Position numbers and translations under genes: made by a program. 32,000 bases of DNA from Kineococcus radiotolerans SRS30216 = ATCC BAA-149 (GTDB lineage: Bacteria > Actinomycetota > Actinomycetes > Actinomycetales > Kineococcaceae), in contig NC_009806.1 of the NCBI RefSeq assembly GCF_000017305.1, forward strand, positions 90,001-122,000. The letters are read 5' to 3'. This document shows positions 3,606-30,284 of the stretch, piece after piece; the first letter of the stretch is position 1; each line of letters begins with the position of its first letter. The notes under the pieces are model-generated. The model saw only the letters and a list, made by a program, of their open reading frames with translations, ran no database searches and was not told where the DNA came from.

Positions 3606-4263
3606 CGGTGCTCCCCCGCCGGGTGACGAACAGGCCCAGACCCGAGGCGGGAGGAAGCTCCCTCTGCTGCATCCACGGCGCCATGTAGTGCTGCAGGAGG
3701 CCGGCGGTCCACTCGACCTCTCGCTCCTCATCGTCTTCGACGTTGCAGTGGAACTGGATGGCCTTCTCGTCGTAGAGGTCAACGCCCTCGGGGAGGTCGG
3801 CGTTGACGGGCAGGTTCAGGCCGTCGAGACGCTGTTCACCATCTGCGGCCCTGACGGGGATCACCTGGGAGACGACCCGGAGCTCATCGCGCGGGGTGAC
3901 GATGAGGTGGGCCAGCTCGTGCAGCAGGACGCGTTTGCCGCGCATCGAGCGCTTGGGGTCCTCAGGGATCCAGACGAGGATGCTCCGGCGCTCCGGGTCG
4001 CGGTCCACGAGGGCGGAGACCTTGGCGGGCAGGTGCAGCAGTCGGCCGTGCTGGCCTCGCTGGGTGATCTTGATGGGGCGCCCTTCCTGCTTGCGCAGGG
4101 TGGTCAGCAGGCGGCGCAGGGAGATACCAGGGTGCACACCCAGGTCCTCCAGGCGCTGCACGCACCGCTGATCGCGTGCCGCGGTGCTGTCGTCGACGCT
4201 GCTTCTTGCTGCCGGCCCGAGGGGAGACGGCTCGTCGAGGTCTCGGCCCGTGAGCTCGTCCAC
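3589..4263 (-). CDS. HExxH zinc-metallopeptidase-like protein (ImmA/IrrE, COG2856-like)
   Basis: HELAH is encoded at 3907-3921. It lies immediately downstream of an XRE-type regulator, the classic COG2856 context. GTG 4263 is preceded by GGAGGGA; the ORF is open up to GTG 4293. Confidence 0.6.
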   Translation of the reverse strand: MDELTGRDLDEPSPLGPAARSSVDDSTAARDQRCVQRLEDLGVHPGISLRRLLTTLRKQEGRPIKITQRGQHGRLLHLPAKVSALVDRDPERRSILVWIPEDPKRSMRGKRVLLHELAHLIVTPRDELRVVSQVIPVRAADGEQRLDGLNLPVNADLPEGVDLYDEKAIQFHCNVEDDEEREVEWTAGLLQHYMAPWMQQRELPPASGLGLFVTRRGSTDESAG

Positions 4264-4426
4264 GCGTTGATCCCTCCAGGTCGTCGAGGCCACGTCAGCC
4301 CAGTTCGCACTGAAGGCGGCGTGGTCAGCTCTGTCCTTCTACGCGGACATCCTGGCACCGACCGGTGACGCCGCCCACTCAACTGCTTGATGCTTGAAGC
4401 AGCGTTGCGAGACGGGAGCCGCGGAA

Positions 4427-5242
4427 CTAGCGATCCCGCGGCTCGTCCTTGCCGAAGTCCTCAGCGTCTCGAAGGGCACTGTCGATGAGTGCGTTGACCA
4501 TGTTGAGTTCTCGCTGACTGAGGTTGCGCGCCCGCATAGCGATGCTGGCCACACGGTCATTTTCGAGAGCATCAAGAGTCCTCAACCGCCTGTTCATCTC
4601 TTCCAGCGTTTTGTCGTCTTGGAAGAAATACCCGGGCCACACACCGAAGATTTTCGCCAGGCATTCGATCTGCTGCATGTTGGGACTTTTTTTGATTCCG
4701 CGCCGCAGGTCGTGCAGGTAACCCACCGACAGCGCGACGCCATGCTCTTTCGCAGCCGCACTGACCTGGCGCATGCTCCATGGCTGCCCGTCAGGGCGGA
4801 CCCTCAGGTTGAACAGGTACTCGAGGCGGGCCGCGAGGTTGGCCTGAGAGTCGACTGCGTACACGACCCCGTCCGACACGTTCGAGGGATCAGGCCCACC
4901 ATGGGCCGAGTCCGCAGCTTGCTCGTGATCGGCAGCGGCAGACGACGTCTGGTCGGGAATGGGGTCGAAGAAGAACCCAGCTTTGACCCCAAAGAAGGCG
5001 GCCAGAGCCCGAAGGGTGTCCGCCGTCGGGTTGCGTTTGGTGCCCTCGCGCAAAGCGGTGATGTACTCGGCACTGAGCCCCTCGACCTGAATCGCAGTGG
5101 CGACCTGTTCTTCGGTGACGAGATTGCCCTCACCGTCGCGGTAGCCGCGCAGCAGATAATCGAGGGCGCGAGCAATTGTCGGCCGATCCTGGTCATTCCC
5201 GCGTTGCGCCACTGTTTTCCCCCGCCATTGTGACTTGTTCAT
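4427..5242 (-). CDS. tandem (2x) HTH XRE-family regulator, EspR-like modules
   Basis: There are two consecutive HTH modules. The second (LAARLEYLF...SVGYLHDLRRGIKKSPNMQQIECLAKIFGVWPGYFFQDD...VASIAMRARNLS) aligns along its length with remembered M. tuberculosis EspR (FAARLNRLF...SAPYLSQLRSGNRTNPS...LANFFRIKAAYFTDD...RIAQRAHGL). The first has the same core (LSAEYITALREGTKRNPTADTLRALAAFFGVKAGFFFD). Confidence 0.8.
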   Translation of the reverse strand: MNKSQWRGKTVAQRGNDQDRPTIARALDYLLRGYRDGEGNLVTEEQVATAIQVEGLSAEYITALREGTKRNPTADTLRALAAFFGVKAGFFFDPIPDQTSSAAADHEQAADSAHGGPDPSNVSDGVVYAVDSQANLAARLEYLFNLRVRPDGQPWSMRQVSAAAKEHGVALSVGYLHDLRRGIKKSPNMQQIECLAKIFGVWPGYFFQDDKTLEEMNRRLRTLDALENDRVASIAMRARNLSQRELNMVNALIDSALRDAEDFGKDEPRDR

Positions 5243-5371
5243 CGGCGCCTATGACCGGTCGCGTCCATCGTCGTCGATTCTTGAGCAGCACGGTGCCGGA
5301 ACCGTATCGGATCGACCTCGAGCCCACCCGTTGCAGCGACAAGCCGCCTCCACCGACCAGGGCGCCGCGGT

Positions 5372-8772: not shown

Positions 8773-9407
8773 CCATCGCCTGCGTCGTCCGTCACCGAGG
8801 ACGACGATGACTACGCAAGGCGGCACAGCACGCGCGTCGCATCCCGCACGTCGGGTCCGGCACGCGGCATCCGCAGCGTGTCCTCCCACAGGTCCCCGCC
8901 TCGGACACGCCTGGAGGACTCGGAGAGGGCATCTCAAGGCCGGTGACGTGCTGTCGCCACCCACCGGGAGAACCTCATGCCCCAGCACCTCGTCATCAGC
9001 GCGTCACTGAACGGAGCAACGAACGCGCTACCTCCCCGGGGGACGAACCCTGCCCAGTCTGGCCACCCGCATAAGGACGGACCCCTCGAAGCGGTCCACC
9101 TCAACAGCCACGGCCGCGACGAGGACAGGCCAGCGGACCTCGAGTCGGTGGGCACGGAGCGGGCAGTGTTTACTGACCCACGACGACCCGGCGGCGCGCA
9201 AGGCGTGGTGATCCAACCTCCGACCCATCCACACCGGGGGCCCTATGGCCGGGTGCATCTGCCAGCATGGCTGTCAGCACTTCCCGCACCCTCGCTGATC
9301 GCTCTTCGCACCACCTCGCCGACGTTGACAGCGACCGCCGCCGGCGCATCCACCAGGACGGCGTCGACCCCCACCACGGCGACGTCACGACCGACAGGAG
9401 TTCCCCG

Positions 9408-11099
9408 ATGAGGCCAGCACCGTGGAAGGTCCGCCCCGTCCCGACCGTGTGGCTGGACTACGCCACCGGCGTCGGGGTCACCGACAGCGGTGCCCGGATC
9501 ACCCCGAAGATCACCGGACGACGCAAGCGGCCTGTCCTGGTCGACCTCCTCGACACCGCCCACAACCTCTCTGCCGAGCGGATCATGCTGACCGGGAGGA
9601 TTCCCCAGCAGAGCCTAGGCGAGCAGCACTGGCTCATCACCGAGACCCCCGGCTGGAGCGCCGGCGGGCACTGGCTCTCCAGCCCGCCCACCGGCCGCTT
9701 CACCCACGGCATCACCGGCCGCAAGCTGGAAGTGCGCCTGGCCTCGGAGTGGTTCACCTCCCCTGACGACTCGCTGACCCCTGACGAGGCGCGCCAGGCC
9801 TGGGTGGCTACGTCCGAAGCGTTGAAGTCCGTCGCCCGCGACGCGGAGCTGCTGAAGTCCCCCGCTGCCACGGGGACGCAGATGTGGGCGCAGTCCCTGC
9901 CCCGCACCCTGGACCCCGAACCCCTCGACCCCGACACCGCCGAGCTGCTGCACCGCACCGCCGGGCAGCACCGCATCGAGCACCTCACCACCGGCGCCGC
10001 TGCCTGCGCGTGTGGGGCCTGCCGCCCGCTGGTGGACGTGGGTGAGCAACCCCGCGGTGGGTTCGCCTACGTCGACGGCCGGTTCATGTACGCCTCCTTG
10101 TGCCGTGAGCTCGGCACCGGCCCCGCGCGGCGGTTGACCGGGGACCAAGCCGAGGACCTGCTGCAGTCCAACCCCTACGCCCGCGCCCGCTTCCACGTTC
10201 GCTTCACCGTTCCCGAGGGCTGGAACACGCTTGGAGCGCTCCCCGTCGCCCATGACGACGCAGACGAGGGGTGGCACTACCCCAACGTCCCCGGCGCCGG
10301 CGGGCAGACCTGGGTCGACGGGGTCGAACTGAAGATCGCCCTCGACCATGGCTGGGGCATCGAGTTCCTCGAGGGCATCGAGTTCACCAAGGCCCGCGTC
10401 CTAGACACCTGGGCCGACCGGCTGCGCCGCGCCCGCGAGCGCCTGGCCCAGGCCCAAGACCTGCCGCCGACGGTGCGCGGGGCCGCCGTCAGCGCCATGC
10501 GCGCCATCCTCATCCAGGGCATCGGTGCGTTCGCCTCCCGCGGCCGGGAGACCACGCAGGTGGTGTGGTCCGCGCGGGAGGTGCCCGCCGAGGCCGCCTC
10601 GACGCTGGTGCGGCACGGGGAGGCGTTCGTGTTCCGCACCCGCGCCCCGCGTCCGCAGGGCCAGGCCGCGGCGCTGTACCGACCGGAGCTGGCTGCGCAG
10701 GTGTGGTCGCGCGGTCGGGCGCGGGTGCTGGAGTGCCCCACCGCGCTGTCGAAGCGTCTGCCCGGGGTCGGCCTGACGCGCCTGGGAGGTGCGTTGGAGG
10801 TCGACCCCGCGACGTTGCTGGCGGTCAACGGCGACGCCATCTACACCACCGAGATCCCGACGTGGTCGCTGCCGGTCGCCACGGGTGGTGGCGACGACGG
10901 TGAGGTCGGGCGGATGCGCCTGCAGGGGTGGCTGCCGGCGGTGAAGCTGCCGACGACGGTAGCGGAACGCAACCGGCTGCGGCAGCGCGCCGAGGCAGCC
11001 GGGCCGGGAACGGCCACCTCGCCGCAGTCCGCTGCGATCACGGCCGACACGGCCGGGGATCCGGCTGTCGAGGTCGTCGCGGAGGTGGCCGGTGCCTGA
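9408..11099 (+). CDS. orphan protein with family-B (protein-primed type) DNA-polymerase-like motif series
   Basis: AGGAG (9396-9400) lies 7 nt before ATG 9408. Motifs occur in polymerase order. ExoI-like WLDYAT at 9450-9467. ExoII-like HNLSAE at 9561-9578. ExoIII-like TPDEARQAWVATS at 9777-9815. Pre-A HRTAGQHRIE at 9951-9980. Motif A-like YVDGRFMYAS at 10068-10097. VELKIALDHGWGIEF at 10323-10367. Motif B-like MRAILIQGIGAFAS at 10497-10538. Motif C-like VNGDAIYT at 10824-10847. Coding status is solid. The functional call is an eye alignment against remembered phi29/PF03175 motifs. Confidence 0.45.
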   Translation: MRPAPWKVRPVPTVWLDYATGVGVTDSGARITPKITGRRKRPVLVDLLDTAHNLSAERIMLTGRIPQQSLGEQHWLITETPGWSAGGHWLSSPPTGRFTHGITGRKLEVRLASEWFTSPDDSLTPDEARQAWVATSEALKSVARDAELLKSPAATGTQMWAQSLPRTLDPEPLDPDTAELLHRTAGQHRIEHLTTGAAACACGACRPLVDVGEQPRGGFAYVDGRFMYASLCRELGTGPARRLTGDQAEDLLQSNPYARARFHVRFTVPEGWNTLGALPVAHDDADEGWHYPNVPGAGGQTWVDGVELKIALDHGWGIEFLEGIEFTKARVLDTWADRLRRARERLAQAQDLPPTVRGAAVSAMRAILIQGIGAFASRGRETTQVVWSAREVPAEAASTLVRHGEAFVFRTRAPRPQGQAAALYRPELAAQVWSRGRARVLECPTALSKRLPGVGLTRLGGALEVDPATLLAVNGDAIYTTEIPTWSLPVATGGGDDGEVGRMRLQGWLPAVKLPTTVAERNRLRQRAEAAGPGTATSPQSAAITADTAGDPAVEVVAEVAGA

Positions 11100-11856
11100 C
11101 CAGTCGACGCCCACCGCGGCCGACCTGATCGCCGATCTGCGCGCCTACGGGCTCAGCATCAGCGAGATCGCCCGCGAGCTCGGCCGCTCGCCCCGCATGG
11201 TCCGCAAGGTGGTGCAGGGAGAGAGCAGCGGGCAGCTGTACGTCGCCGCCCTCAGCGAGCTGGCCCGGACCGGACGCGCTCAGGCGCAACCGGCGCGCCG
11301 ACGCGGGCGGGATGGCCAGCTCATGCGCGTGCGCGCACCGCGAGGAGCTTCCGAGCCGACTCGCCGTCCAGAGGAGGGCACGGAAGCCCAGAAGTCCGGG
11401 ACTGCTGGGCAGCCTCCGGCGTCCCGCGCTGGCGCTGGTGCGGGCCAGCCCTCGCCGACTCCAGGTGGACGAGCGGGGCGGTCCGGGGGCTTCAGCGACA
11501 GCACGACGTACTTGCCGGGTGGGGTGCGCCAGCACACGGTGACGGCACCTCGCAGTGAGGGAACCGGCCGGGAGAGGGCCCGCCAGCGACTGCTCGAGAC
11601 GTTGCGCCGTGCCGCGCGCAGCCAACGAGGGGGTCGCAAGAACGTGCGCTTCCGCGTCACCTTGAAGAACGGCACGACGGTGGAGGTCGGCGCCAAGGGC
11701 GGCTACGCCGTCTCGAAGGCGCTCGCGCGCTCGCGCAGCGAGGGTGACGACCCATTCGCCTGGTTGGCCGGAGAGGTAGCGGATCGGCAGTACCTGCAGA
11801 AGGCGCTGTCGCGGGAGGACCTGAGCATCGTTGGAGTCGAGGCCACGATCTACTGA
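11092..11856 (+). CDS. HTH DNA-binding protein with arginine-rich central region
   Basis: GTG 11092 overlaps the upstream TGA (GTGCCTGA) and has GGAGG 6 nt upstream. HTH-like LSISEIARELGRSPRMVRKVV at 11152-11214. A basic, low-complexity middle is followed by a structured C-terminus (RFRVTLKNGTTVEVGAKGGYAVSKAL...) that ends in Tyr. Confidence 0.6.
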   Translation: MPDQSTPTAADLIADLRAYGLSISEIARELGRSPRMVRKVVQGESSGQLYVAALSELARTGRAQAQPARRRGRDGQLMRVRAPRGASEPTRRPEEGTEAQKSGTAGQPPASRAGAGAGQPSPTPGGRAGRSGGFSDSTTYLPGGVRQHTVTAPRSEGTGRERARQRLLETLRRAARSQRGGRKNVRFRVTLKNGTTVEVGAKGGYAVSKALARSRSEGDDPFAWLAGEVADRQYLQKALSREDLSIVGVEATIY

Positions 11857-13772: not shown

Positions 13773-16208
13773 TCAGCTGCCTTGGTAGTGCGGGAGCTCA
13801 GCGAAGGCGGATGGCGCAGTGGCCTGCCCGTCCTTGCGTCGTCCTCGACCGTACTTGCTCTTGGTGGTCACGCTTGGTGCAGTCGCCGCCGCAGCGGGGC
13901 GGATCGTCGGAAGCTGCGCGGGACCGTTGTCCCCCGAACCTGCGGGCGTCGCATGGCGGTCGGGGGTGGGTCGGAACCCGTTGGCGAGGAAGCCGGCGAT
14001 GCGCAGGTAGGCCTCGTTCACGTCGGCGTCCAGGGTTTCGTAGTCGACGTGCACGCCGTCGGCGAGACGCGCGGAGTACGGAATGAGAACCGTCGCCCGG
14101 CAACGCCTCTGGAAGTGACCGATGAGGGTCTCCACGTGCACTCCCCCGTTGCGGGCCGCCTTGGCCAGTGTCCCGTCCTTGGTCGTGCGGGTGACCATGG
14201 CGACCACGGCTTCACGTGCGAGGCGTTCATGGCCCAGGTCCTCCAGACGGTCTAGGACCTTCCGGCTGCGATCCACGGCGTCCATGCTGGTGCCGGTGAC
14301 TACGACGACGTCGGTGGCGGTCTGAAGCACCTCGGGCATGTCGCGTAGCCCGGAGCTGCCCAGGTCGGTGATGACGACGTCGTGGAACTTGCTGAGCAGT
14401 TCGAGGGCCTCGCGGTGCTGCTGAGCGGTGAACGAGCGGCTGTGGTCGGCGCTGTAGATGTCCAGCCGCTTGGCGCTGCGGGCGTAGCGGCGCAGCTCGA
14501 CGACGGAGTCCACCGCGCCGTGCTGGTGCTCGTCCAGCAGGTCTTGCAGGAACCGGTCGGCGGGGGTGGCGAAGCGATCTGCGAGGTTGCCGGCCGTCTG
14601 GTCGGCGTCGATGACGGCGACGCGGTCGTCTCGGTGCTCGGCGAACTGCAACCCGATGGCGCCGGTGGTCAGCGTCTTGCCCACGCCCGTCCCGTACGCC
14701 AGGACGACGATGTGCCGGTTGCCGTCCAGCGGGGTCCGGACACGGTAGATCTCGTGGTCGCGTTCGGCCTGGCGGGCGCTCGGGGGCGGCTGGACTCGTC
14801 CCAGGGTCAGCTTCATGACGGCGCTGCGCCACCCCCCGTCGGGCATGGCGTGCACCGGGGAGAGGACAGGGGCTGCATCGCGCAGCTCGGCGTCACGGAC
14901 CTGCTGCACGAAGGTGGCGGTGTCGATGACGGCACCCGGGACACTCGCCTGAGGCGCTACCACCTCGCGGCCGGGAGCACTGACCACCGCCTCCCCGGCG
15001 GCCTGGGCTGCAGGTACCGCGGTCTTCGGGGTGTCCGGGGTGTCCGGACCCTTCGGGGCGGGCGTGGACGCCGGCGACGAGGCGGCGCTGACGATGGCCT
15101 GCGTCTCCTCCGGATGGATGGAGGGGCCTGACGCCGCGGGGGTGTCGGAGGCGGCTTCAGCGTCGGTGGAGCCAGCCGGTGCGGGCATCACCGGCGTGGC
15201 GGGTTCGTCGAGGTCGTCGGTGGCACCCGGAGCAGTCGGGGCCGGAGTCGTGGGGGGCGGCGTGGGCACCTGAGCCGGGAGCAGCGTCGCACCCTGCCAG
15301 AGGAAGACCGGGGCTGGCGGCAGCGGAGCAGGTTCGTGGGCCTCGCTCACCGATGGAGCGAAGAGCGGTCCGGTGGGCTGCTGCAGCTGGTGGGCGCTGT
15401 CAGAGGTGGTGGCCGTTCGGCCGCGTCGCGCACGTGTTCGAGAGGCGGGCAGACTCTCCGCCGCGAGGGCGCTCGCCGGATCGCTCTGCTCGCCGGCCTC
15501 CTCCTCGGCCTGCTCATCGGCCTGCGCCGTGTTGACCGCCTGAGTGGGCAGGTGAGCGCGTGCCCCGTTGAGGCCGGCCCGCTCCCCACCGTGCGCGTGA
15601 TCCTGGACGTCGGTAGTGAGGCGCTGCTCCACCGCCGGCGGGGTGCCCTGGGGCTCACCGGTCTCGATCGGTGCGTCCTCCTCGCCCGCGTCTTCCTCGC
15701 CCGCGTCGGAAGCGATCATGTCGCGGCCGCTGGCGGCGATGGCGGGGCCCTTGTCGACGCCGTCAACGACGTCGACGACATCGACGACGGTGGCGATGCT
15801 GCGGGCGCTCATTGCCTCGGCGGCTTCCTGAACCGATGAGGCTCCGTCGGCGTCCTGGAGCCGTCCGGGCTGGCCCTCCTCATCGCTGAGGAACGATGCG
15901 AGCAGCTCGTCGTACTCGAGGTCGCCGGCCGTCCAGTCCGCCGATGCGGGTGTCGACGACTGCGCCGAGGCGACCTCAGCGGTCACCTGGACTGCAGACG
16001 CTGTCGTGGGGGTGTCCGATCCGGCTTCCTCGGCTGGCGTCCGCAGCGTCTCCGTCGCTCCTGCGTCCTCCTCGGTCGCCGGGGGACGCAGCGGGGTGCC
16101 ACGCCGGAGACGACGGACGGGGCGCTCAGGGCGCGTCCGTGCAGGCGCTCGCTGCTCGGTGACGGTGATCGCGTCGACTTCGGTGGTGGCGTTGCTCAAG
16201 TGGTTCAT
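13773..16208 (-). CDS. ParA/MinD-family ATPase with long Pro/Ala/Thr/Glu-rich disordered N-terminus (EspI-like architecture)
   Basis: The C-terminal domain reads GGWRSAVMKLTLGRV...HIVVLAYGTGVGKTLTTGAIGL...RVAVIDADQTAGNL...VVITDLG...HFQRRCRATVLIPYSARLADG...AYLRIAGFLANGF. This parallels the remembered EspI/Rv3876-type MinD/ParA family. The first 430 aa or so are low complexity. Confidence 0.8.
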   Translation of the reverse strand: MNHLSNATTEVDAITVTEQRAPARTRPERPVRRLRRGTPLRPPATEEDAGATETLRTPAEEAGSDTPTTASAVQVTAEVASAQSSTPASADWTAGDLEYDELLASFLSDEEGQPGRLQDADGASSVQEAAEAMSARSIATVVDVVDVVDGVDKGPAIAASGRDMIASDAGEEDAGEEDAPIETGEPQGTPPAVEQRLTTDVQDHAHGGERAGLNGARAHLPTQAVNTAQADEQAEEEAGEQSDPASALAAESLPASRTRARRGRTATTSDSAHQLQQPTGPLFAPSVSEAHEPAPLPPAPVFLWQGATLLPAQVPTPPPTTPAPTAPGATDDLDEPATPVMPAPAGSTDAEAASDTPAASGPSIHPEETQAIVSAASSPASTPAPKGPDTPDTPKTAVPAAQAAGEAVVSAPGREVVAPQASVPGAVIDTATFVQQVRDAELRDAAPVLSPVHAMPDGGWRSAVMKLTLGRVQPPPSARQAERDHEIYRVRTPLDGNRHIVVLAYGTGVGKTLTTGAIGLQFAEHRDDRVAVIDADQTAGNLADRFATPADRFLQDLLDEHQHGAVDSVVELRRYARSAKRLDIYSADHSRSFTAQQHREALELLSKFHDVVITDLGSSGLRDMPEVLQTATDVVVVTGTSMDAVDRSRKVLDRLEDLGHERLAREAVVAMVTRTTKDGTLAKAARNGGVHVETLIGHFQRRCRATVLIPYSARLADGVHVDYETLDADVNEAYLRIAGFLANGFRPTPDRHATPAGSGDNGPAQLPTIRPAAAATAPSVTTKSKYGRGRRKDGQATAPSAFAELPHYQGS

Positions 16209-19852: not shown

Positions 19853-22465
19853 TCAGGTCGACTGCGCCAGCTCGACTGCCTGCTCGACCCAGAAGGTGCC
19901 GGCCGCCGGCCCGCCGTTGCAGGTGCCGTCGGACTCTCCCACCCGCTTGATCCACAAGCGCGCGTCCTGGTGCGAGTCGTCATCGACGGCGGCGGGGGTC
20001 TTACCCAGGGTGCGCCCTTCGGGGTTGCACCACTCTCCGTTGCCGCCAGAGCCGTTGCGGCTGGTGTCCACGACGTAGTGCGCGCCGTCGAGCTCCTTCG
20101 ACAGCGCTTCGGCGTAGGAGCGTTCGGCCGCGTCGGCGTTGAAGTTGGACACGTTGGTGGCGAACCCGCGGGCCTGATCGACCCCGGCCTTCCGCAGCCG
20201 CTGCGCGATGGTGTCGACCTGCCCACCGGTCCACGAGCTGTTGCCGGCGTCGAGGTAGACCGCCGCCCCGGCCTCGTCGAGGACCTGCACGGCCTTGCGC
20301 AGCAGGGCCAGGCGGTCGCCTTGCCCGTCGCACTGCCCGACCTGGGCGATGGCGTCCGGCTCGACGATGACCGCGGCACCGGTGCCGCGCAGGCCGTCCG
20401 CGACCTGCTCGACCCAGCCGGGATACTCCTGCGGGGAGAGACCACCGGCGGAGTAGGACCCGCAGTCGCGGCCCGGCGCGGCGTAGGTCACCACCACCGC
20501 GGTCTTGCCCGCCTTCTGGGCGGCGGTGGCGTAGTCGCGCACCGTGGCGGTCACGTCGCGGGTCCAGTCCCCGACCCACAACGCCACCCCGCCCTTCGCG
20601 ATTCGTTCCAGCGCTTGAGCGGCGTCGGGGTCGCTGCCGCGCACGTCGTCGATCTCCTGCGCGGCATAGCTCGGGTCGGCGTAGGGCGCGGCGGCGGCGA
20701 ACGGGTTACCGCCCGCCCCTGTCTCCTCCTCCGCTGCCTCGCCGCCGGTGTCGGTGCGGGTGTCGGCGTCTGCGTTCTCGGCCGCGGTCTCACCGTCCGC
20801 CTCATCCTCAGGCGACTGCGCGGCGTCGTCGGTGCCGCCGGTGGGCGCGAGGACGACGATGGTGGGCGCAGCCTGGCTGGTCAGGTTCAGCGTGCTGACC
20901 CCCTTCTCGCTGTCCAGGGCCTTCGCGCTCTGACCCGGGACGAAGACCTGAGCGTCGACGTCCTCGCCCACGTCGAGGGTGACCTCCCGGTCGGGGACGT
21001 CGAGGGGCTTCTCTCCGTCCTGGTCCCACACCGGGGCGGCCTCCCACACCGCGACGACGGTGGATCCGTCGGCGCGAGGCAGAACCAGCGTGGTCGTGTC
21101 GTCGCTGCCGCCGTTGACCTCCACCTCCGCTGGGGAGGCACTGCCGGTCGCGGACGGGCCCCCATGCTCGACCGTGGCGATGAGGTTCTTCAGCGCCGTG
21201 GCGACCGGCTTGGGGGATCCGTCGGAGTGGTACAGCCCGAACCGGTCCTCGGCCTCGGCGTTGTTGGAGCCCTCGTCCAGCAGCTCGTAGATGTAGCTGC
21301 GGTCCACGCCGTTCTGGAAGTTGGCGAGGAGCTGCTGGAGCTGGAGCACGGCCTGGGCGTCTTCGGAGACGTGGGGCTGGACCCCGTTGCCGGCGGTGGA
21401 GTCGGTGGCGGTGTGGAAGCCCAGCTCCGTCGCCCACATCGCCCCGCCGTCCTCGACCGCGCTGGACAGGGTGGTCCGCGCGTCGGCGGCCTGCGGGGTG
21501 GAGGTGTCCACGCCGGGGGTCACCTCAGCAGCCATCTGCACCTGGTGCTCGGTGTGCTCAGCGGTCTGCATCGCCCCCCCGGTGTAGGGGTGGCTGTTGG
21601 CGATGTCGGAGGGAACCTCACCCAGCTCCGCCCTCGACTCGTCGAAGACCAGAGACGGCGCGACCACGGCGACGTCCTCGCCCAGGGTGTCCTTGACCGC
21701 GGTGTAGAGCTCCCTCTGGTGGGCGCGGACCTTGCCCGCCCAGTCGCTGACCCCGGCGTTGTCGCGCTCGTTCACCCCCTCCACCGAGGTGACGTTGAGG
21801 TCGTTGTCCTTGATGAGCTGCAACTGGTTCTCGATGGTGAAGGACGAGGTCTCCGGCTGCGCGACCCAGTTGATCGAGATGCCGGCCTCGCTGAGGCGCT
21901 TCATCGACTCCAGGGGCACGGAGTCGGTGGAGCCCAGACCGTCGCGGACGTGCTTCACGCCCAGGTCCTCGGCCAGCTTCACCGAGTCCACGTCCCCGTA
22001 GGCGCGGTCGAGGTAGGCGACGTGCATCCCGACGCCGATGGAGTTCACGAAGCCCCCCGCGGTGAGGACGGTGTTGTTCGCGCCCGCGGGGAGGGCCGCG
22101 GCGTCCTTGCCGGTTGTCGTAGAGGGGTGGGGCTGGTCTTGGTCTTCTCGACCCTCATCCTCGGTTGCCTCGTTGCTCTCGCCGACGCCGGTGACCCAGC
22201 GCTTGAGCTTCTCCCAGAGGCTGTCCACCTCGTCCTGGTCGGCCGGGTCGGCGGCCTTCGGCGTCCGTGCGTCGGGGTCGATCGAGGCGGGGTCTTCCGA
22301 CTCGGTCGGTGAGGCCGACGAGGTGGGTGCCGGTGCGGCGCCGGCTGCAGCCTGCGCCGGTAGCGGGGCGAGCAGCGCACCGCCAGCAGCCAGGGCCGCG
22401 GCCAGGGCGAGGCTGCGGCGGTAACGAGGGGAGGGGCGGGACGACGGTGCGGTGGAGCTGGTCAT
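19853..22465 (-). CDS. secreted two-catalytic-domain glycoside hydrolase: N-terminal clan GH-A-like (beta/alpha)8 domain plus C-terminal GH6 domain
   Basis: Signal peptide RRSLALAAALAAGGALLAPLPAQAAAG. GH6 signature 1 is VVTYAAPGRDCGSYSAGG (about 20441-20494) and signature 2 is AVIVEPDAIA (20345-20374); both fit the PROSITE patterns exactly. Also YLDAGNSSW, GFATNVSNF, VVDTSRNG, WCNP and WIKRVGESDG. The N-terminal domain has NE (GVNERDN) and ATELGF, typical of GH-A acid and nucleophile positions. ATG 22465 has a GGAG Shine-Dalgarno. Confidence 0.85.
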   Translation of the reverse strand: MTSSTAPSSRPSPRYRRSLALAAALAAGGALLAPLPAQAAAGAAPAPTSSASPTESEDPASIDPDARTPKAADPADQDEVDSLWEKLKRWVTGVGESNEATEDEGREDQDQPHPSTTTGKDAAALPAGANNTVLTAGGFVNSIGVGMHVAYLDRAYGDVDSVKLAEDLGVKHVRDGLGSTDSVPLESMKRLSEAGISINWVAQPETSSFTIENQLQLIKDNDLNVTSVEGVNERDNAGVSDWAGKVRAHQRELYTAVKDTLGEDVAVVAPSLVFDESRAELGEVPSDIANSHPYTGGAMQTAEHTEHQVQMAAEVTPGVDTSTPQAADARTTLSSAVEDGGAMWATELGFHTATDSTAGNGVQPHVSEDAQAVLQLQQLLANFQNGVDRSYIYELLDEGSNNAEAEDRFGLYHSDGSPKPVATALKNLIATVEHGGPSATGSASPAEVEVNGGSDDTTTLVLPRADGSTVVAVWEAAPVWDQDGEKPLDVPDREVTLDVGEDVDAQVFVPGQSAKALDSEKGVSTLNLTSQAAPTIVVLAPTGGTDDAAQSPEDEADGETAAENADADTRTDTGGEAAEEETGAGGNPFAAAAPYADPSYAAQEIDDVRGSDPDAAQALERIAKGGVALWVGDWTRDVTATVRDYATAAQKAGKTAVVVTYAAPGRDCGSYSAGGLSPQEYPGWVEQVADGLRGTGAAVIVEPDAIAQVGQCDGQGDRLALLRKAVQVLDEAGAAVYLDAGNSSWTGGQVDTIAQRLRKAGVDQARGFATNVSNFNADAAERSYAEALSKELDGAHYVVDTSRNGSGGNGEWCNPEGRTLGKTPAAVDDDSHQDARLWIKRVGESDGTCNGGPAAGTFWVEQAVELAQST

Positions 22466-22477
22466 GGCTCGTCTCCA

Positions 22478-22510
22478 GACAAGGGGATGACAAGGGGATG
22501 ACAAGGGGAG
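22478..22510. repeat. 3 head-to-tail copies of 11-bp GACAAGGGGAT/G in the 5' leader of the GH6 gene
   Basis: Copies at 22478-22488, 22489-22499 and 22500-22510 (the last base differs). They lie between the terminator hairpin and the RBS/ATG of the minus-strand gene. Confidence 0.85.
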
Positions 22511-22545
22511 ACCGCCCACCGCAGAGGCTGCAGGTGGGCGGTCTC
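22508..22545 (-). terminator. 13-bp-arm hairpin downstream of the GH26-like gene
   Basis: GAGACCGCCCACC (22508-22520) pairs with GGTGGGCGGTCTC (22533-22545). The loop GCAGAGGCTGCA can extend the stem. It lies 41 nt after the stop at 22586 (minus strand). Confidence 0.55.
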
Positions 22546-28397: not shown

Positions 28398-30284
28398 CTA
28401 CTCGGTCACTTCGGTCGAGTCCTCCGACGCGGCGGCAGAGTCCTCTGAAGCGGTGGCGCCCTGTTGGGCCATGTTCTCGGTGTTGACTGCCCCAGCCCAT
28501 GGTGGCTGAGCACGACCGGCGATCGAGGCACCCGGGGCGACCTGGATGACGTCGTCCGCTTCAGCGGCAGTCCGCCCTTCGATGCGGGCGCCCAGTCCCA
28601 GCCTGAGGTTGCCCTCGATGTAGGCGTCCTGCCCTAGCTCGAGGTCACGGTCGCTGTGTGCGTCCTGCGCCAACTGAAGGTGGCCATCGATGTGGGCGTC
28701 CTGCTCCAGCTGAAGATGGCCGCCGATGTAGGCGCCCTCCCCCAGCGTGAGGTGGCTGCCGATGTGGGCGCCCTCCCTCAGCCAGAGGACGCCGTCGATG
28801 TGGGCGTGCGGCCCCAGCCAGAGGTCGCCGCCGATGTGGGCGCCTGGCCCCAGCGTGAGGTCGCCGCCGATATGGGCGCCCAGCCCCAGCCAGAAGACGC
28901 CGTCGATGTGGGCGCCTGGCCCCAGCGTGAGGTCGCCGCCGATGTGGGCGTCCGACCCCAGCCGGAATTCGCCGCCGATGTGGGCGCCTGGCCCCAGCTG
29001 GAGGTCGCCGCCGATGTGGGCGCCCAGCCAGAACTTGCCGCCGATGTGGACGCCTGGCCCCAGCTGGAGGTCGTCGTCGATGTGGGCGCCTTGCCCCAGC
29101 GTGAGGTCGCCGCCGATGTGGGCGTCCGACCCCAGCCAGAGCTTGCCGCCGATGTGCGCGCCTGGCCCCAGCCAGAAGACGTCGTCGATGTGGGCGCCTG
29201 GCCCCAGCGTGAGGTCGCCGCCGATGTGCGCCCTCGACCCCAGCCGGAAAACACCGATGTGGGCGCCTTCGACGAGCGCGAGGTCGCCCGAGAGGTAGAA
29301 GTTGGTGAGGTCGATCTTCCCGAGGCGCTGCCCGGTGAGGGTGAAGTCGTCCAACAGTTGGGCGCCCCGCAGGTTGACCTCGATCGGTGGGGTGTTCCCG
29401 TCGATGAGGGGAAGCATTGCGGTGATCAGGCGCTGGGCGGTGCGGCGCACCTCGGCTTCGGCGTCTCGAAGATCACGAACTACCTCATCACTGGGCTGCC
29501 AGGCGCGAGGGCGCGGCTGGTGGGGACCGGTCTCGGCAACGTCGGCGGTTGCATCGCCGTCGCCCGTCGTCTCGTCTGAGTCGGCCGGTGCGTCGTGGTC
29601 GGGGTGGTGGAACGGCTGCCGCAGGTAGGCGCAGAGGATGTCGACCACCGTCGGCACCCGGCCCCGGTCTTCGTCGGCGAGGCGGAACAGGCTGTGCATG
29701 CCGCCGAGTCGAACGGCTGCGGCGGTGTGGCCGAGCTGCTCGACGGCTTTGCCGAAGCGGTCGTCGCGGGCGCCGGTGACGTCGCGCTGGTCGGTCAGGT
29801 CGTTGGCGCGGCGGGTCTCCTCGAGGGCGGCTCGGGTCAAGCTCGCGGTGTGGTGACTGACGACGACACCGATGCCGGCGGCAGCGGCAGCCATCACCGC
29901 CCCGGACAGGACGCCTAGCGGCGACCGGGCGGAGATCTCCGCGGTGACGCGGGCGTTCGGGTCGGCCGGCGTGGGCTGCACGTTGTCGGGGACGAACAGG
30001 TCGGGTAGGTACACCCAGATGCCGACGATGACCGCGACGGCGACCACGATGATGCCGACGATGAGCCAGATCAACCTGGGCGGCAGGCCGCCTGCGGTGT
30101 TCGTCGGGGAGACGTTGCTGGCCTTACCGGCTCGGTCCGGATCGCGGTCTGCGATCGGTGGAGATTTCTTGGCCGACTTGTCGACGGCGCTCTCTGGATC
30201 GGCCATGCCAAGGGATCTTGCCGCTCGCTCGTTGATCCGTCTCGTGGACGCTGGCACAGAGTGCACTACCGCGTCGCGGCGCAC
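28398..30284 (-). CDS. membrane-anchored repeat protein: TM, then helical domain, then pentapeptide-like segment, then about 20 x 12-residue xAHIGGDLxLGx repeats
   Basis: TM LIWLIVGIIVVAVAVIVGIWVYL. RFGKAVEQLGHTAAAVRLGGMHSLFRLA...PTVVDILCAYLR resembles the N-terminal module of actinobacterial pentapeptide-repeat proteins (from memory). The repeat block spans about aa 339-575. Start is uncertain (GTG 30284 or ATG 30206). Confidence 0.8.
   Translation of the reverse strand: MRRDAVVHSVPASTRRINERAARSLGMADPESAVDKSAKKSPPIADRDPDRAGKASNVSPTNTAGGLPPRLIWLIVGIIVVAVAVIVGIWVYLPDLFVPDNVQPTPADPNARVTAEISARSPLGVLSGAVMAAAAAGIGVVVSHHTASLTRAALEETRRANDLTDQRDVTGARDDRFGKAVEQLGHTAAAVRLGGMHSLFRLADEDRGRVPTVVDILCAYLRQPFHHPDHDAPADSDETTGDGDATADVAETGPHQPRPRAWQPSDEVVRDLRDAEAEVRRTAQRLITAMLPLIDGNTPPIEVNLRGAQLLDDFTLTGQRLGKIDLTNFYLSGDLALVEGAHIGVFRLGSRAHIGGDLTLGPGAHIDDVFWLGPGAHIGGKLWLGSDAHIGGDLTLGQGAHIDDDLQLGPGVHIGGKFWLGAHIGGDLQLGPGAHIGGEFRLGSDAHIGGDLTLGPGAHIDGVFWLGLGAHIGGDLTLGPGAHIGGDLWLGPHAHIDGVLWLREGAHIGSHLTLGEGAYIGGHLQLEQDAHIDGHLQLAQDAHSDRDLELGQDAYIEGNLRLGLGARIEGRTAAEADDVIQVAPGASIAGRAQPPWAGAVNTENMAQQGATASEDSAAASEDSTEVTE
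28575..29270. repeat. 36-bp coding tandem repeat array (about 19-20 units)
   Basis: Repeated blocks such as GCCGCCGATGTGGGCGCCTGGCCCCAGCGTGAGGTC occur within CDS 28398-30284. The periodicity also produces several spurious overlapping ORFs in other frames. Boundaries are approximate. Confidence 0.85.

What the first reader, a model, noticed from the sequence alone, without database searches (positions are those of the whole stretch)
9408..11099. Orphan 563-aa protein with the motif series of protein-primed family-B DNA polymerases but degenerate catalytic residues
Read against remembered phi29-type/PF03175 landmarks, the protein shows the landmarks in the correct order and with plausible spacing. 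WLDYAT lies 17 aa from the N-terminus (compare ExoI xDFETT, with Glu replaced by Ala). HNLSAE compares with ExoII HNLKFD. TPDEARQAWVATS compares with ExoIII ITPEEYAYIKND, with Tyr to Trp and Asp to Ser. HRTAGQHRIE compares with the pre-motif-A RxxYxGGRxE. YVDGRFMYAS compares with motif A DxxSLYPS, keeping Asp and Tyr. VELKIALDHGWGIEFLEGIEF compares with the ELxxALxxGYxI block. MRAILIQGIGAFAS compares with motif B KLMLNSLYGKFA. VNGDAIYT compares with motif C YxDTDS, with the first Asp replaced by Asn. This would make it a very divergent PolB relative, apparently exonuclease-dead with a non-canonical motif C. Primer-independent piPolBs are reported to carry TTD at that position. Together with a DNA translocase and a ParA-type ATPase in the same window, it could mark a new self-replicating element or a polymerase-derived accessory protein.
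Basis: inference. Interest (0 to 1): 0.8.

Follow-up and report, generated by a model that had tools for sequence, protein, structure and literature searches.

The report
Hidden phi29-type polymerase for bacterial telomeres
The gene encodes a very divergent, proofreading-dead relative of the phage phi29 DNA polymerase that belongs to the Tac family of actinobacterial telomere proteins and sits in an operon with a Tpc-like terminal protein, so it most likely primes DNA synthesis on a protein to finish the ends of a linear replicon.

Summary
The ORF is real (9408-11099, +, 563 aa, AGGAG ribosome-binding site). It is not an orphan: more than 600 clusters of homologues exist in Actinomycetota. An AlphaFold model (pLDDT 88) matches phi29 DNA polymerase (Foldseek E 2e-11), and its 41 viral matches are almost all DNA polymerases, largely of protein-primed viral groups. 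Profile alignment maps motif A (D223), motif B (R365..G373), Tx2GR (W433..R437) and motif C (N-G-D476).

The two metal-binding aspartates are invariant in about 240 diverse relatives. Three of the four exonuclease carboxylates are lost. So the exonuclease is dead, but the polymerase site looks intact rather than degenerate.

The protein is a full-length homologue of SCP1 Tac (BLASTP 1e-32). Tac is the telomere-associated protein that adds dGMP to the terminal protein Tpc in vitro and was described as having no polymerase motif. The overlapping downstream gene (11092-11856) is a full-length Tpc homologue (hhalign E 1e-11).

The gene pair recurs on terminal-protein-capped linear plasmids (Micrococcus pLMV7, Clavibacter pCSL1, Streptomyces pSCO2). 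It also occurs in a 4.85-Mb Kineococcus contig, a genus whose type genome is linear with unexplained telomeres.

Verdict: a new member of the Tac/Tpc telomere system, here recognised as a cryptic protein-primed family-B polymerase.

The parts
9408..11099 (+). tac-like gene: 563-aa exonuclease-dead protein with the fold of a protein-primed family-B DNA polymerase (a telomere-associated polymerase)
   Evidence: ORF. AlphaFold model pLDDT 88, pTM 0.87. Foldseek: phi29 DNA polymerase, E 2e-11, prob 1.0; 41 viral hits at E<=1e-3, almost all DNA polymerases, largely of protein-primed groups. BLASTP against SCP1 Tac E 1e-32, 30% identity over aa 15-486. Family HMM against Tac 176 bits.
9394..9398 (+). 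AGGAG ribosome-binding site, 9 nt upstream of ATG 9408
   Evidence: Read directly from the sequence. Homologues start at the same residue.
9456..9458 (+). codon of D17, the only surviving exonuclease carboxylate (aligns with phi29 D12, ExoI)
   Evidence: Global hhalign. Invariant in the 39-sequence alignment. Partners E14, D66 and D169 are replaced by A/T, Q/G and A.
10074..10076 (+). codon of D223, motif A aspartate (aligns with phi29 D249), in YVDGRFMY
   Evidence: hhalign. 240 of 240 family members keep Asp. It lies at the end of strand 216-224, which is followed by a helix.
10500..10538 (+). motif B equivalent, R365-AILIQGIG373-AFAS (aligns with phi29 K383-LMLNSLYG391-KFAS)
   Evidence: hhalign. 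R/K365 and G373 are kept in 240 of 240 members.
10704..10718 (+). W433-S-R-G-R437, equivalent of the Tx2GR motif (phi29 T434..R438)
   Evidence: hhalign. W433 kept in 233 of 240 and R437 in 224 of 240 members.
10827..10835 (+). motif C equivalent, N474-G475-D476 (aligns with phi29 D456-T-D458), at the turn of a beta hairpin
   Evidence: hhalign. Strands 470-474 and 477-480 in the model. D476 kept in 239 of 240 members. Position 474 varies (N/R/A/Q) and position 475 is T or G.
11081..11085 (+). GGAGG ribosome-binding site for the downstream gene, inside the end of the tac-like gene
   Evidence: Read directly from the sequence.
11092..11856 (+). tpc-like gene: 254-aa putative terminal protein (N-terminal HTH, basic RRR..VR block, conserved C-terminal domain). 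Its GTG start overlaps the tac-like stop by 8 nt.
   Evidence: ORF. Weak HTH hits. Co-occurs with the tac-like gene on plasmids and in 67 of 70 genome loci, usually with a 1-, 4- or 8-nt overlap. hhalign against the Tpc family: prob 97.4%, E 1.4e-11, aa 1-249 against Tpc 15-255. Pairwise BLASTP against Tpc is not significant.

Best explanation
Genes 9408-11099 and 11092-11856 form a two-gene telomere-patching module of the Tac/Tpc type. The first gene encodes a highly divergent protein-primed family-B DNA polymerase. It keeps the phi29-like fold and the polymerase active site: motif A Asp223, motif C Asp476, motif B Arg365/Gly373, and the Tx2GR-like W433..R437. It has lost 3'-5' exonuclease catalysis and the KxY motif. 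The second gene encodes the terminal protein.

[quoted passage not shown] The polymerase, bound to a free terminal protein, recognises the overhang. It uses a hydroxyl side chain of the terminal protein as primer and adds the first nucleotide(s) templated by the 3' end, probably dGMP opposite a terminal C-run, which would allow sliding back. It makes only a short oligonucleotide, which a host polymerase then extends. [quoted passage not shown]

Shown here: the fold, conservation of the motifs, homology to Tac and to Tpc, the operon structure, and the distribution on linear replicons.
Shown by others for the homologue: Tac alone deoxynucleotidylates Tpc and extends it by a few nucleotides.
Inferred: that this particular pair does the same, the identity of the priming residue, and the nature of the replicon ends.
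For: - Fold. The AlphaFold model (pLDDT 88, pTM 0.87) has phi29 DNA polymerase as its seven best PDB matches (E 2e-11 to 1e-9, prob 1.0). It has 41 viral matches at E<=1e-3, almost all DNA polymerases and largely of protein-primed groups (tectiviruses, GA-1, His1, adenoviruses, adintoviruses, mavirus). A Streptomyces Tac-clade member (pSCO2, P0270) modelled separately gives the same result (E 6e-14, best hit 'phi29 DNA polymerase bound to terminal protein').
- Active site. D223 is kept in 240 of 240 relatives at <=50% identity, D476 in 239 of 240, R/K365 and G373 in 240 of 240, and Y/F228 in 240 of 240. The mapping comes from hhalign.
- Family. BLASTP against SCP1 Tac (CAC36646, L090:3585-5759) gives E 1e-32 over nearly the whole protein. 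The family HMM scores Tac at 176 bits and pSCO2 Tac at 242 bits.
- Partner. The downstream ORF is a full-length Tpc homologue by profile-profile comparison (E 1.4e-11). It is present after the polymerase gene in 67 of 70 genome loci, mostly with overlapping stop and start codons.
- Replicons. Homologues lie on 55 plasmids. These include pLMV7, which is linear and terminal-protein-capped (PMC3869321); pLMA7 and pJD12, recorded as linear; pCSL1; and pSCO2, which has SCP1-type telomeres (PMC8743542).
- Ends. The deposited ends of pLMV7 (CTA-G8-CAGCGG) and pSCO2 (G6-CAGAGG) both show a G-run followed by CAG, like SCP1's 4-6 G (PMC3064793).
- Kineococcus. In K. aurantiacus the pair lies 311 kb from one end of a 4.85-Mb contig. 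The K. radiotolerans chromosome is linear, and no ResT or Tap/Tpg orthologues were found (PMC2587704).
- Biochemistry of the homologue. Tac is necessary and sufficient to add dGMP to Tpc on an SCP1 telomere template and to extend it by a few nucleotides (PMC4513846).
- Replication link. The same domain is fused to primase-helicase modules in proteins of 1100-1540 aa. It matches the C-terminal segment of the pAL1.101 replicase (22.5 bits, aa 1522-1600).
Against: - No experiment exists on this protein or on any close (Micrococcales or Kineococcus) homologue.
- The window shows no replicon end, inverted terminal repeat or G-run/CAG motif, so linearity of the source replicon is not shown.
- Pfam PF03175 is below its gathering score (18 vs 25.8 bits). 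Sequence searches of the PDB, NCBIfam and PHROGs find nothing.
- The first Asp of motif C, the Asn/Ser/Tyr of motif B and the KxY motif are missing, so catalysis could be impaired or unusual.
- The window protein has E499 where most relatives have K/R in GGGDDG(K)xGR.
- Some Streptomyces plasmids with archetypal Tap/Tpg ends also carry a Tac homologue, so the family need not always be the sole telomere system.
- Similarity of the terminal protein to Tpc is detectable only with profiles.
Confidence: 0.78

Rival explanations
1. It is a true replicative protein-primed polymerase, like that of phi29. It starts at both ends and copies the whole replicon by strand displacement, rather than only patching the telomeres.
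For: It has the same fold as phi29, PRD1 and adenovirus replicases. A terminal protein gene is adjacent. Relatives are fused to primase-helicase modules. pAL1.101 has been proposed as a replicase (from my own knowledge of Kolkenbrock et al. 2010, J Bacteriol). Some carriers are small, such as pSCO2 at 19 kb.
Against: There is no proofreading exonuclease, and the KxY motif has no counterpart, while the phi29 polymerase extends well beyond the end of the alignment. Tac extends Tpc by only a few nucleotides in vitro (PMC4513846). Streptomyces linear replicons replicate from internal origins. The pair also sits in a 4.85-Mb chromosomal contig of K. aurantiacus, and in K. radiotolerans dnaA is central (PMC2587704).
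Confidence: 0.1
2. It is a catalytically inert, polymerase-derived adaptor. It only binds the telomere overhang and recruits the terminal protein, and a host polymerase does the chemistry.
For: The exonuclease site is degenerate. Motif C lacks its first Asp, motif B lacks N/S/Y, and KxY is absent. Tap was originally described as a recruiting factor (PMC4513846, introduction).
Against: Both metal-ligand aspartates and the motif B basic residue are invariant across about 240 sequences that are otherwise only about 30% identical. This is hard to explain without catalysis. Purified Tac needs no other polymerase to label Tpc (PMC4513846).
Confidence: 0.07
3. It is a piPolB-like primer-independent polymerase, or the polymerase of a new self-synthesising mobile element.
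For: The window has plasmid-like content.
Against: The exonuclease is dead here, whereas piPolBs, as I recall, keep theirs. No integrase, tRNA gene or flanking direct repeats were found. The conserved unit is polymerase plus Tpc-like terminal protein, not a pipolin or casposon gene set. Tac does not extend the DNA ends offered to it and uses only its terminal protein (PMC4513846).
Confidence: 0.03
4. The motif resemblance is chance in an eye alignment, and the protein has an unrelated fold.
For: Sequence-only searches of the PDB and NCBIfam find nothing. The Pfam hit is below threshold.
Against: Two independent high-confidence models match phi29 polymerase with probability 1.0. There are 41 viral polymerase matches. 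The profile-profile alignments are consistent with each other. Weak PF03175 hits appear in 16 of 39 members and in pSCO2 Tac.
Confidence: 0.01

Closest known systems
Tac/Tpc of Streptomyces coelicolor plasmid SCP1 (atypical telomere system; tac = CAC36646, tpc = CAC36648)
   Same: Homologous over the full length (Tac: BLASTP 1e-32, HMM 176 bits; Tpc: hhalign E 1.4e-11). Same gene order, polymerase then terminal protein, in an operon. The terminal protein has the same N-terminal HTH plus basic block: window MRVRAPR aligns with Tpc ARVRRR. Carriers whose ends are known start with a G-run.
   Different: Only 30% identity. The window protein lacks Tac's ~170-aa N-terminal coiled and low-complexity extension. 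It has a GGGDDG..GR..R segment that Tac lacks. Motif C is NGD rather than RTD. There is no 78-aa Cys/His ORF between the two genes. The host is Kineococcus-like, not Streptomyces. No biochemistry exists for this clade.
Protein-primed family-B DNA polymerases (phi29, PRD1, Bam35, adenovirus; Pfam PF03175)
   Same: Overall fold. Order and spacing of ExoI, pre-motif A, motif A, the ELxxA..GY block, motif B, Tx2GR and motif C. Both catalytic aspartates. A neighbouring terminal protein gene.
   Different: About 10-14% identity. Below the Pfam threshold. Exonuclease carboxylates E14, D66 and D169 are lost. Motif C is xGD or xTD rather than DTD. Motif B is Rx3(I/L)xxIG rather than Kx3NSxYG. No KxY. 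The terminal protein gene is downstream rather than upstream. The homologue Tac makes only short products rather than replicating a genome.
pAL1.101 / pAL1.102 of Arthrobacter plasmid pAL1 (1,707-aa 'telomere-associated protein' and its terminal protein)
   Same: A linear Micrococcales plasmid with the polymerase-like gene immediately followed by an HTH terminal protein gene. The C-terminal segment of pAL1.101 (aa 1522-1600) matches the family profile in the block preceding motif B (22.5 bits). Other relatives carry the whole domain fused to Toprim, DnaB-N or D5 primase-helicase modules.
   Different: pAL1.101 is three times longer and matches only locally. pAL1.102 is not detected by the terminal protein profile. 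The pAL1 end is CCTGC..., not a G-run. tblastn did not list pAL1 among the 55 plasmid hits.
Tap/Tpg (archetypal Streptomyces telomere proteins)
   Same: Same logic: an operon of a telomere-associated polymerase and a terminal protein, with Tap adding dCMP plus 12 nt to Tpg (PMC4513846).
   Different: No sequence similarity has been reported (PMC4513846) and none was seen here: NCBIfam found no family. Whether Tap also has a PolB fold was not tested.
piPolB of pipolins
   Same: A divergent PolB on a bacterial mobile element, with the first Asp of motif C replaced.
   Different: No terminal protein partner is known for piPolBs, which keep an active exonuclease and prime de novo (my recollection of PMC5695915; not compared directly here). 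The window shows no pipolin features.

Membership tests
Tac (telomere-associated polymerase of SCP1-type telomeres) | Full-length sequence homology to SCP1 Tac | tested here: met
   BLASTP E 1e-32, 30% identity, query 15-486 against Tac 185-680. Family HMM against Tac 176 bits, HMM positions 2-511.
Tac (telomere-associated polymerase of SCP1-type telomeres) | Operon with a tpc-type terminal protein gene directly downstream | tested here: met
   8-nt overlap of stop and start. Downstream product against the Tpc family: hhalign prob 97.4%, E 1.4e-11, full length. The pair is conserved in 67 of 70 loci.
Tac (telomere-associated polymerase of SCP1-type telomeres) | Encoded on a linear, terminal-protein-capped replicon whose ends start with a G-run | not testable with these tools
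   The window holds no replicon end. Indirect support: pLMV7 (terminal-protein-capped; end G8-CAG) and pSCO2 (G6-CAG) carry homologues (PMC3869321).
Tac (telomere-associated polymerase of SCP1-type telomeres) | Deoxynucleotidylates its terminal protein; required for linear replication | not testable with these tools
   Shown only for SCP1 Tac/Tpc (PMC4513846, PMC3064793).
Protein-primed family-B DNA polymerase (PF03175) | Pfam PF03175 match at or above the gathering score | tested here: not met
   18.1 bits against a cut-off of 25.8, E 1.3e-3, aa 262-349 only.
Protein-primed family-B DNA polymerase (PF03175) | phi29-like fold (exonuclease domain plus palm and fingers, with insertions) | tested here: met
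   Foldseek against the PDB: the top 7 hits are all phi29 polymerase, E 2e-11, prob 1.0, TM 0.45, over 480-610 columns. BFVD: 41 polymerase hits.
Protein-primed family-B DNA polymerase (PF03175) | Two catalytic aspartates (motif A Asp, second Asp of motif C) | tested here: met
   D223 and D476 align with phi29 D249 and D458. They are invariant in 240 of 240 and 239 of 240 relatives. Spatial proximity was not checked.
Protein-primed family-B DNA polymerase (PF03175) | Canonical motif B Kx3NSxYG, motif C YxDTDS and KxY | tested here: not met
   Motif B is Rx3IQxIG. Motif C is VNGDA (first Asp becomes N; R/T elsewhere in the family). No K..Y counterpart.
Protein-primed family-B DNA polymerase (PF03175) | 3'-5' exonuclease motifs ExoI (DxE), ExoII (Nx2-3F/YD), ExoIII (Yx3D) | tested here: not met
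   Only D17 (= D12) is kept. E14 becomes A/T, D66 becomes Q/G/other, and D169 becomes A128.
Protein-primed family-B DNA polymerase (PF03175) | Adjacent terminal protein gene | tested here: met
   A Tpc-like gene overlaps the 3' end. In the phages examined the terminal protein gene is upstream instead.
piPolB (primer-independent PolB of pipolins) | Active exonuclease motifs, a pipolin context (recombinases, att repeats, often next to a tRNA gene) and no terminal protein | tested here: not met
   Exonuclease motifs are lost. No recombinase domain, tRNA gene or flanking direct repeats in the window. A terminal protein gene is present. No direct sequence comparison with piPolBs was made.
pAL1.101-type multidomain telomere replicase | Zn-finger/Toprim/helicase N-terminal modules fused to the PolB-like C-terminus | tested here: not met
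   The window protein is the stand-alone 563-aa domain. Fusions exist elsewhere in the family. pAL1.101 matches only at aa 1522-1600.

The most novel reading that the evidence does not exclude
Tac-type 'telomere-associated proteins' were described in 2015 as a new class of DNA polymerase without any polymerase motif. On this reading they are an unrecognised, exonuclease-less branch of protein-primed family-B polymerases. Together with Tpc-type terminal proteins they would form the general telomere machinery of many non-Streptomyces actinobacterial linear replicons: Micrococcus, Clavibacter, Curtobacterium, Microbacterium and Cutibacterium plasmids, and Kineococcus chromosomes. The terminal proteins and end-replication enzymes of these replicons have remained unidentified. 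A terminal G-run would serve a phi29-like sliding-back initiation. This would mean that bacterial chromosomes can depend on a virus-type protein-primed PolB for their ends.
Probability: 0.6. Interest if true: 0.72.

Novelty: new member of a known kind. Interest (0 to 1): 0.62.

Why it matters
Three points.

1. It gives a structural explanation for a published puzzle. Tac (and Tap) polymerise on a protein primer, yet were said to have no polymerase motif, and Streptomyces was said to encode no family-B polymerase (PMC4513846, PMC5449611). Here Tac's family is shown to have the phi29 fold with both catalytic aspartates invariant. The only hint I found in the searchable literature is an unsupported passing phrase in a 2024 preprint (10.1101/2024.11.13.623437).

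2. It names concrete candidates for unidentified terminal proteins and end-patching enzymes. This applies to the terminal-protein-capped linear plasmids of Micrococcus, where tpg homologues were 'not found' and the mechanism is 'still unknown' (PMC11707576). It also applies to the linear chromosome of Kineococcus, for which 'unique mechanisms must protect the telomers' (PMC2587704).

3. It supplies testable residues (D223, D476, R365) and a minimal two-gene module. Such a module could serve for engineering linear replicons or orthogonal protein-primed replication in high-GC hosts.

If the inference is wrong, the finding is still an annotation fix for hundreds of 'hypothetical' or 'Mucin-19' genes.

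Tried and rejected
- Sequence-only searches gave nothing for the polymerase: phmmer and a profile against PDB chains, NCBIfam and PHROGs. SCP1 Tac itself has no Pfam hit.
- Exact look-ups of the window protein, with either start codon, found no record. The source genome therefore stays unidentified. The closest named relatives are Kineococcus at 73-79% identity, and the closest contigs are metagenomic.
- SCP1 is not in the plasmid collection under NC_003903 or AL589148. A search from the pSCO2 protein did not surface SCP1 Tac. Supplements of two papers did not list tac locus tags.
- The link was finally made through Tpc. The S. canus protein is in the same 90% cluster as CAC36648, and from there the SCP1 locus was obtained.
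- Pairwise BLASTP of the window terminal protein against Tpc is not significant; only profiles connect them. pAL1.102 was not recovered by the terminal protein profile.
- The longer 610-aa ORF from ATG 9267 was rejected.
- An upstream ORF seen in close relatives is not intact in the window.
- A search of the window for a telomere-like G6-CAG, tRNA genes or long inverted repeats was negative.
- piPolB, casposon-like and 'accessory pseudo-polymerase' readings were considered and rejected; the reasons are given under the rival explanations.
- One local hhalign run put motif B in a shifted register at the very end of its alignment. I preferred the register, which aligns IGAFAS with YGKFAS.
Full report
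**1. The observation**

The ORF exists as described: ATG 9408 to TGA 11099 on the + strand, 563 aa. The window has 64-74% G+C, and the ORF has the codon-position G+C profile of a real actinobacterial gene (GC3 0.89). AGGAG at 9394-9398 precedes the ATG, and all homologues begin at the same MRP.... The longer in-frame reading from ATG 9267 is therefore not the gene.

The protein is not an orphan. A first search returned at least 210 homologues. They come from Kineococcus (73-79% identity), Oerskovia, Curtobacterium, Clavibacter, Arthrobacter and Micrococcus. All are 'hypothetical' and none has a Pfam domain. An exhaustive profile search found 678 clusters at 50% identity.

**2. Is it a family-B polymerase?**

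Sequence evidence alone is weak but consistent.
- Pfam PF03175 (DNA_pol_B_2) scores 18 bits, E 1.3e-3, below the 25.8-bit cut-off. It covers aa 262-349.
- 16 of 39 family members give the same sub-threshold hit. So does the Streptomyces collinus pSCO2 relative, over a longer stretch (19.7 bits, aa 291-475).
- PDB sequence searches, NCBIfam and PHROGs find nothing.

Structure settles the question.
- An AlphaFold2 model built on a 39-sequence alignment has pLDDT 88.3 and pTM 0.87.
- Its seven best Foldseek matches in the PDB are all phi29 DNA polymerase (E 2e-11 to 1e-9, probability 1.0, TM about 0.45, 480-610 aligned columns). Other family-B polymerases follow far behind.
- Against predicted viral structures, 41 matches reach E<=1e-3. 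Almost all are DNA polymerases, largely of protein-primed groups: tectiviruses, GA-1, His1, Rhodococcus phage Toil, Streptomyces phage WheeHeim, adenoviruses, adintoviruses, bidnaviruses and mavirus.

**3. Motif mapping**

I aligned nine protein-primed PolBs taken from phage records: phi29, Av-1, Squall, Cp-1, PR3, AP50, pGIL01, DLc1 and a Vibrio autolykivirus. I compared this alignment with the family by hhalign. With the 39-sequence set the E-value is 0.0057. With 240 sequences it is 4.7e-4 in local mode, and a global alignment was also obtained.

Correspondences, in canonical phi29 numbering:

| Window residue(s) | phi29 equivalent | Status |
|---|---|---|
| D17 in VWLDYAT | D12 (ExoI) | kept |
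| A19 | E14 (ExoI) | lost |
| RIMLTGRIPQ (aa 58-67) | YFHNLKFD (ExoII) | D66 lost |
| A128 | D169 (ExoIII) | lost |
| HRTAGQHRIE | pre-motif A (YxGG) | kept in outline |
| D223, Y228 | D249, Y254 (motif A) | kept |
| VELKIALDHGWGIEFLEGIEF | block before motif B | kept in outline |
| R365, G373, F375-A-S | K383, G391, F-A-S (motif B) | kept |
| W433-x-x-G-R437 | T434-x-x-A-R438 (Tx2GR) | R kept |
| V-N474-G-D476-A-I-Y | Y-C-D456-T-D458-S-I-H (motif C) | second Asp kept |

The model puts D223 at the end of strand 216-224, before a short helix. It puts NGD at the turn between strands 470-474 and 477-480. These are the positions expected for motifs A and C. KxY has no counterpart.

HNLSAE as ExoII is not: that string is not conserved in the family.

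**4. Conservation**

I examined 240 relatives: 39 close ones, 200 representatives at <=50% identity, and SCP1 Tac.
- D223 is present in 240 of 240.
- D476 is present in 239 of 240.
- R/K365 is present in 240 of 240.
- G373 is present in 240 of 240.
- Y/F228 is present in 240 of 240.
- W433 is present in 233 of 240.
- R437 is present in 224 of 240.

The position of phi29 D456 is free (N, R, A, Q, Y, S) and the next residue is T or G. The family's motif C is therefore x(T/G)DA.

Of the four exonuclease carboxylates only the D12 equivalent survives. My reading is that the exonuclease is dead and the polymerase centre is under strong purifying selection. 'Degenerate catalytic residues' is therefore only half right.

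**5. What family is it?**

tblastn against plasmids found homologues on 55 records:
- Micrococcus pLMV7, pLMA7 and pJD12.
- Clavibacter sepedonicus pCSL1.
- Curtobacterium, Microbacterium, Paenarthrobacter, Glutamicibacter, Rothia, Kocuria and Cutibacterium plasmids.
- About 27 Streptomyces or Kitasatospora plasmids at roughly 30% identity, several mis-named 'Mucin-19'.

pLMV7 is experimentally linear, carries 5'-bound terminal proteins and has a 732-bp inverted terminal repeat (PMC3869321). Among the Streptomyces hits is pSCO2, which has SCP1-type telomeres and is reported to carry tac and tpc (PMC8743542).

I reached SCP1 itself through the neighbouring gene.
- The protein downstream of the S. 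canus homologue contains ARVRRR...RRRKEWT. This matches the published bipartite signal of Tpc, ARVRRR / RRRKKWT (PMC2425503).
- That protein lies in the same 90% cluster as CAC36648, which is SCP1 Tpc.
- This gave the SCP1 locus (L090): a 724-aa Tac, a 78-aa Cys/His ORF and the 259-aa Tpc, together 3.2 kb. That agrees with the published 3.2-kb tac-tpc fragment (PMC3064793).

The window protein aligns with SCP1 Tac at BLASTP E 1e-32, 30% identity, aa 15-486 against 185-680. The family HMM scores Tac at 176 bits and the pSCO2 protein at 242 bits, both end to end.

A separate AlphaFold model of the pSCO2 Tac-type protein (pLDDT 88.4) again matches phi29 polymerase. Its best hit is 'phi29 DNA polymerase bound to terminal protein', E 6e-14.

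**6. The partner gene**

ORF 11092-11856 encodes 254 aa. Its GTG start has GGAGG 6 nt upstream, and it overlaps the polymerase stop by 8 nt. It has an N-terminal helix-turn-helix.

It co-occurs with the polymerase gene in three settings:
- on the Micrococcales and most Cutibacterium plasmids (25 records);
- in 67 of 70 loci from species-representative genomes, typically with 1-, 4- or 8-nt overlaps;
- in K. aurantiacus.

Pairwise BLASTP against Tpc is not significant. A profile built only from the non-Streptomyces proteins, however, aligns with a Tpc-family profile at probability 97.4%, E 1.4e-11, over aa 1-249 against Tpc 15-255. The alignment includes the HTH, the basic block (window RRRGRDGQLMRVRAPR against Tpc RLTKSGEVARVRRR) and the C-terminal GGY/GF...GGD...W...IVGVE segment.

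Tpc is the protein found covalently on SCP1 ends (PMC3064793). The window therefore carries a tac-tpc-type operon.

**7. Mechanism**

For SCP1, purified Tac is necessary and sufficient to add dGMP to Tpc on a 49-nt telomere overhang and to extend it by a few nucleotides. The authors stressed that Tac has no polymerase motif and that Streptomyces encodes no family-B polymerase (PMC4513846; likewise for Tap in PMC5449611).

The present results give a simple explanation: Tac-family proteins are cryptic protein-primed PolBs.

I infer the following for the window pair.
- The pair patches the 3' overhangs left at the ends of a linear replicon.
- The terminal protein serves as primer and remains on the 5' end.
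- Loss of the exonuclease and absence of a KxY counterpart fit a short, non-processive product that is handed over to a host polymerase.

Deposited ends support a common template rule. pLMV7 starts CTA-GGGGGGGG-CAGCGG and pSCO2 starts GGGGGG-CAGAGG. SCP1 has 4-6 G (PMC3064793). A homopolymeric terminus is what sliding-back initiation by protein-primed PolBs uses; this last link is my inference.

Two further observations tie the domain to replication. Relatives exist in which it is the C-terminal module of 1100-1540-aa proteins with D5-type primase-helicase, DnaB-N or Toprim domains. It also matches aa 1522-1600 of the 1,707-aa pAL1.101 'telomere-associated protein'.

**8. Where the window comes from, and limits**

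No exact record was found. The closest contigs are metagenomic and syntenic with the window: DUF6545, then an MpaB-like oxygenase, then [an ORF], then tac-like, then tpc-like.

In K. aurantiacus the pair lies 311 kb from one end of a 4.85-Mb contig. K. radiotolerans has a Southern-confirmed linear chromosome. It has no ResT or Tap/Tpg orthologue, and its telomere mechanism is unknown (PMC2587704).

The window contains no end, tRNA gene, long inverted repeat or G6-CAG. Linearity of its replicon is therefore inferred, not shown. Apart from the pair, neighbours differ between genomes. The ParA-type (13773-16208) and FtsK/SpoIIIE (25220-28021) genes are not part of the module, although FtsK/SpoIIIE genes also lie near it on pLMV7 and pCSL1.

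**9. Comparison and novelty**

As a system this is a new member of the known Tac/Tpc kind. It is diverged (30% identity), lacks Tac's N-terminal extension and sits in a new host range. By fold it works like a phi29-type polymerase, but it fails several formal membership criteria of PF03175: the gathering score, the exonuclease motifs, canonical motifs B and C, and KxY.

Two things appear not to be in the literature I could search. One is a demonstration that the Tac family is a PolB fold; only a passing, unsupported phrase, 'a specialized B-family polymerase', occurs in preprint 10.1101/2024.11.13.623437. The other is that this pair is the obvious candidate for the unidentified terminal proteins and telomere enzymes of Micrococcus linear plasmids (PMC11707576) and of Kineococcus chromosomes.

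**10. Scores**

I score interest at 0.62. The finding is solid and explanatory, and it opens testable questions. However, it extends a known system rather than revealing a new one, and specialists with access to predicted-structure databases may already suspect it.

Confidence:
- that it is a Tac-family protein with a PolB fold: about 0.95;
- that it acts as a terminal-protein-primed telomere polymerase: about 0.78.

Noticed in passing
window 28525-29328 (inside ORF 28398-30284, - strand): At least 17 tandem copies of a 36-nt (12-aa) period within a 628-aa protein that has hexapeptide-repeat and bactofilin domains. It looks like a long regular beta-helix or filament protein.
   Followed up: no
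window 8773-9407; L097:9336-10004, L098:3910-4578, L099:201-914: Close relatives carry a 222-237-aa ORF with an N-terminal HTH-like segment (GGTRAQALLGINPTQLHRLRDAGLL). It ends 4 nt inside the tac-like start, which suggests a three-gene operon there. In the window only weak remnants remain, and the overlapping 144-aa ORF 8977-9411 has no coding-like codon bias.
   Followed up: partly
L090:5768-6004 (SCP1, between tac and tpc): SCP1 has a 78-aa Cys/His-rich ORF (CAC36647) between tac and tpc, with no Pfam hit. It is absent from the window and from the Micrococcales loci, where the two genes overlap.
   Followed up: no
P0184, P0192, P0194, P0244; L004:10982-16105 (pAL1.101): The tac-like domain also occurs as the C-terminal module of 1100-1540-aa proteins. 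Their N-termini carry D5_N/DUF5906/RepB-primase, DnaB-N or Toprim domains. pAL1.101 matches the family only at aa 1522-1600.
   Followed up: partly
L091:1-20 (pLMV7 left end); L095:1-15 (pSCO2 left end): The deposited termini share a G-run followed by CAG: CTA-GGGGGGGG-CAGCGG and GGGGGG-CAGAGG. The leading CTA of pLMV7 may be a cloning remnant. The ends of pLMA7, pJD12, pCSL1 and the C. acnes plasmid look incomplete.
   Followed up: partly
L014:5428-7623 and other Streptomyces plasmid hits (H97-H119): RefSeq names many Streptomyces Tac homologues 'Mucin-19'. In S. canus a transposase separates tac from tpc. Some carriers (CP109502, CP134205) are listed with archetypal Tap/Tpg-type ends, so they may hold two telomere systems.
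   Followed up: no
window 10884-10928 (aa 493-507, GGGDDGEVGRMRLQG): A GGGDDG(K/R)xGRxR segment is highly conserved: D496 and D497 are invariant in close relatives and kept in 184 and 168 of 201 representatives. It is missing from SCP1 Tac and has no named phi29 counterpart. The window has E where most relatives have K/R.
   Followed up: no
window 13773-16208 (-), 25220-28021 (-), 19853-22519 (-): An 811-aa protein with a ParA/CbiA-type domain only at aa 500-619, a 933-aa FtsK/SpoIIIE-domain protein (possibly a TraB-like conjugative translocase) and an 888-aa protein with a C-terminal GH6 domain. Many neighbouring ORFs have no Pfam match, so the content is plasmid-like.
   Followed up: no
L018 (Kineococcus sp. 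SYSU DK025), + strand from 2070: In this locus the ORF that matches the terminal protein profile lies upstream of the tac-like match (3781-5361) rather than downstream. This could be a rearrangement or a second copy.
   Followed up: no
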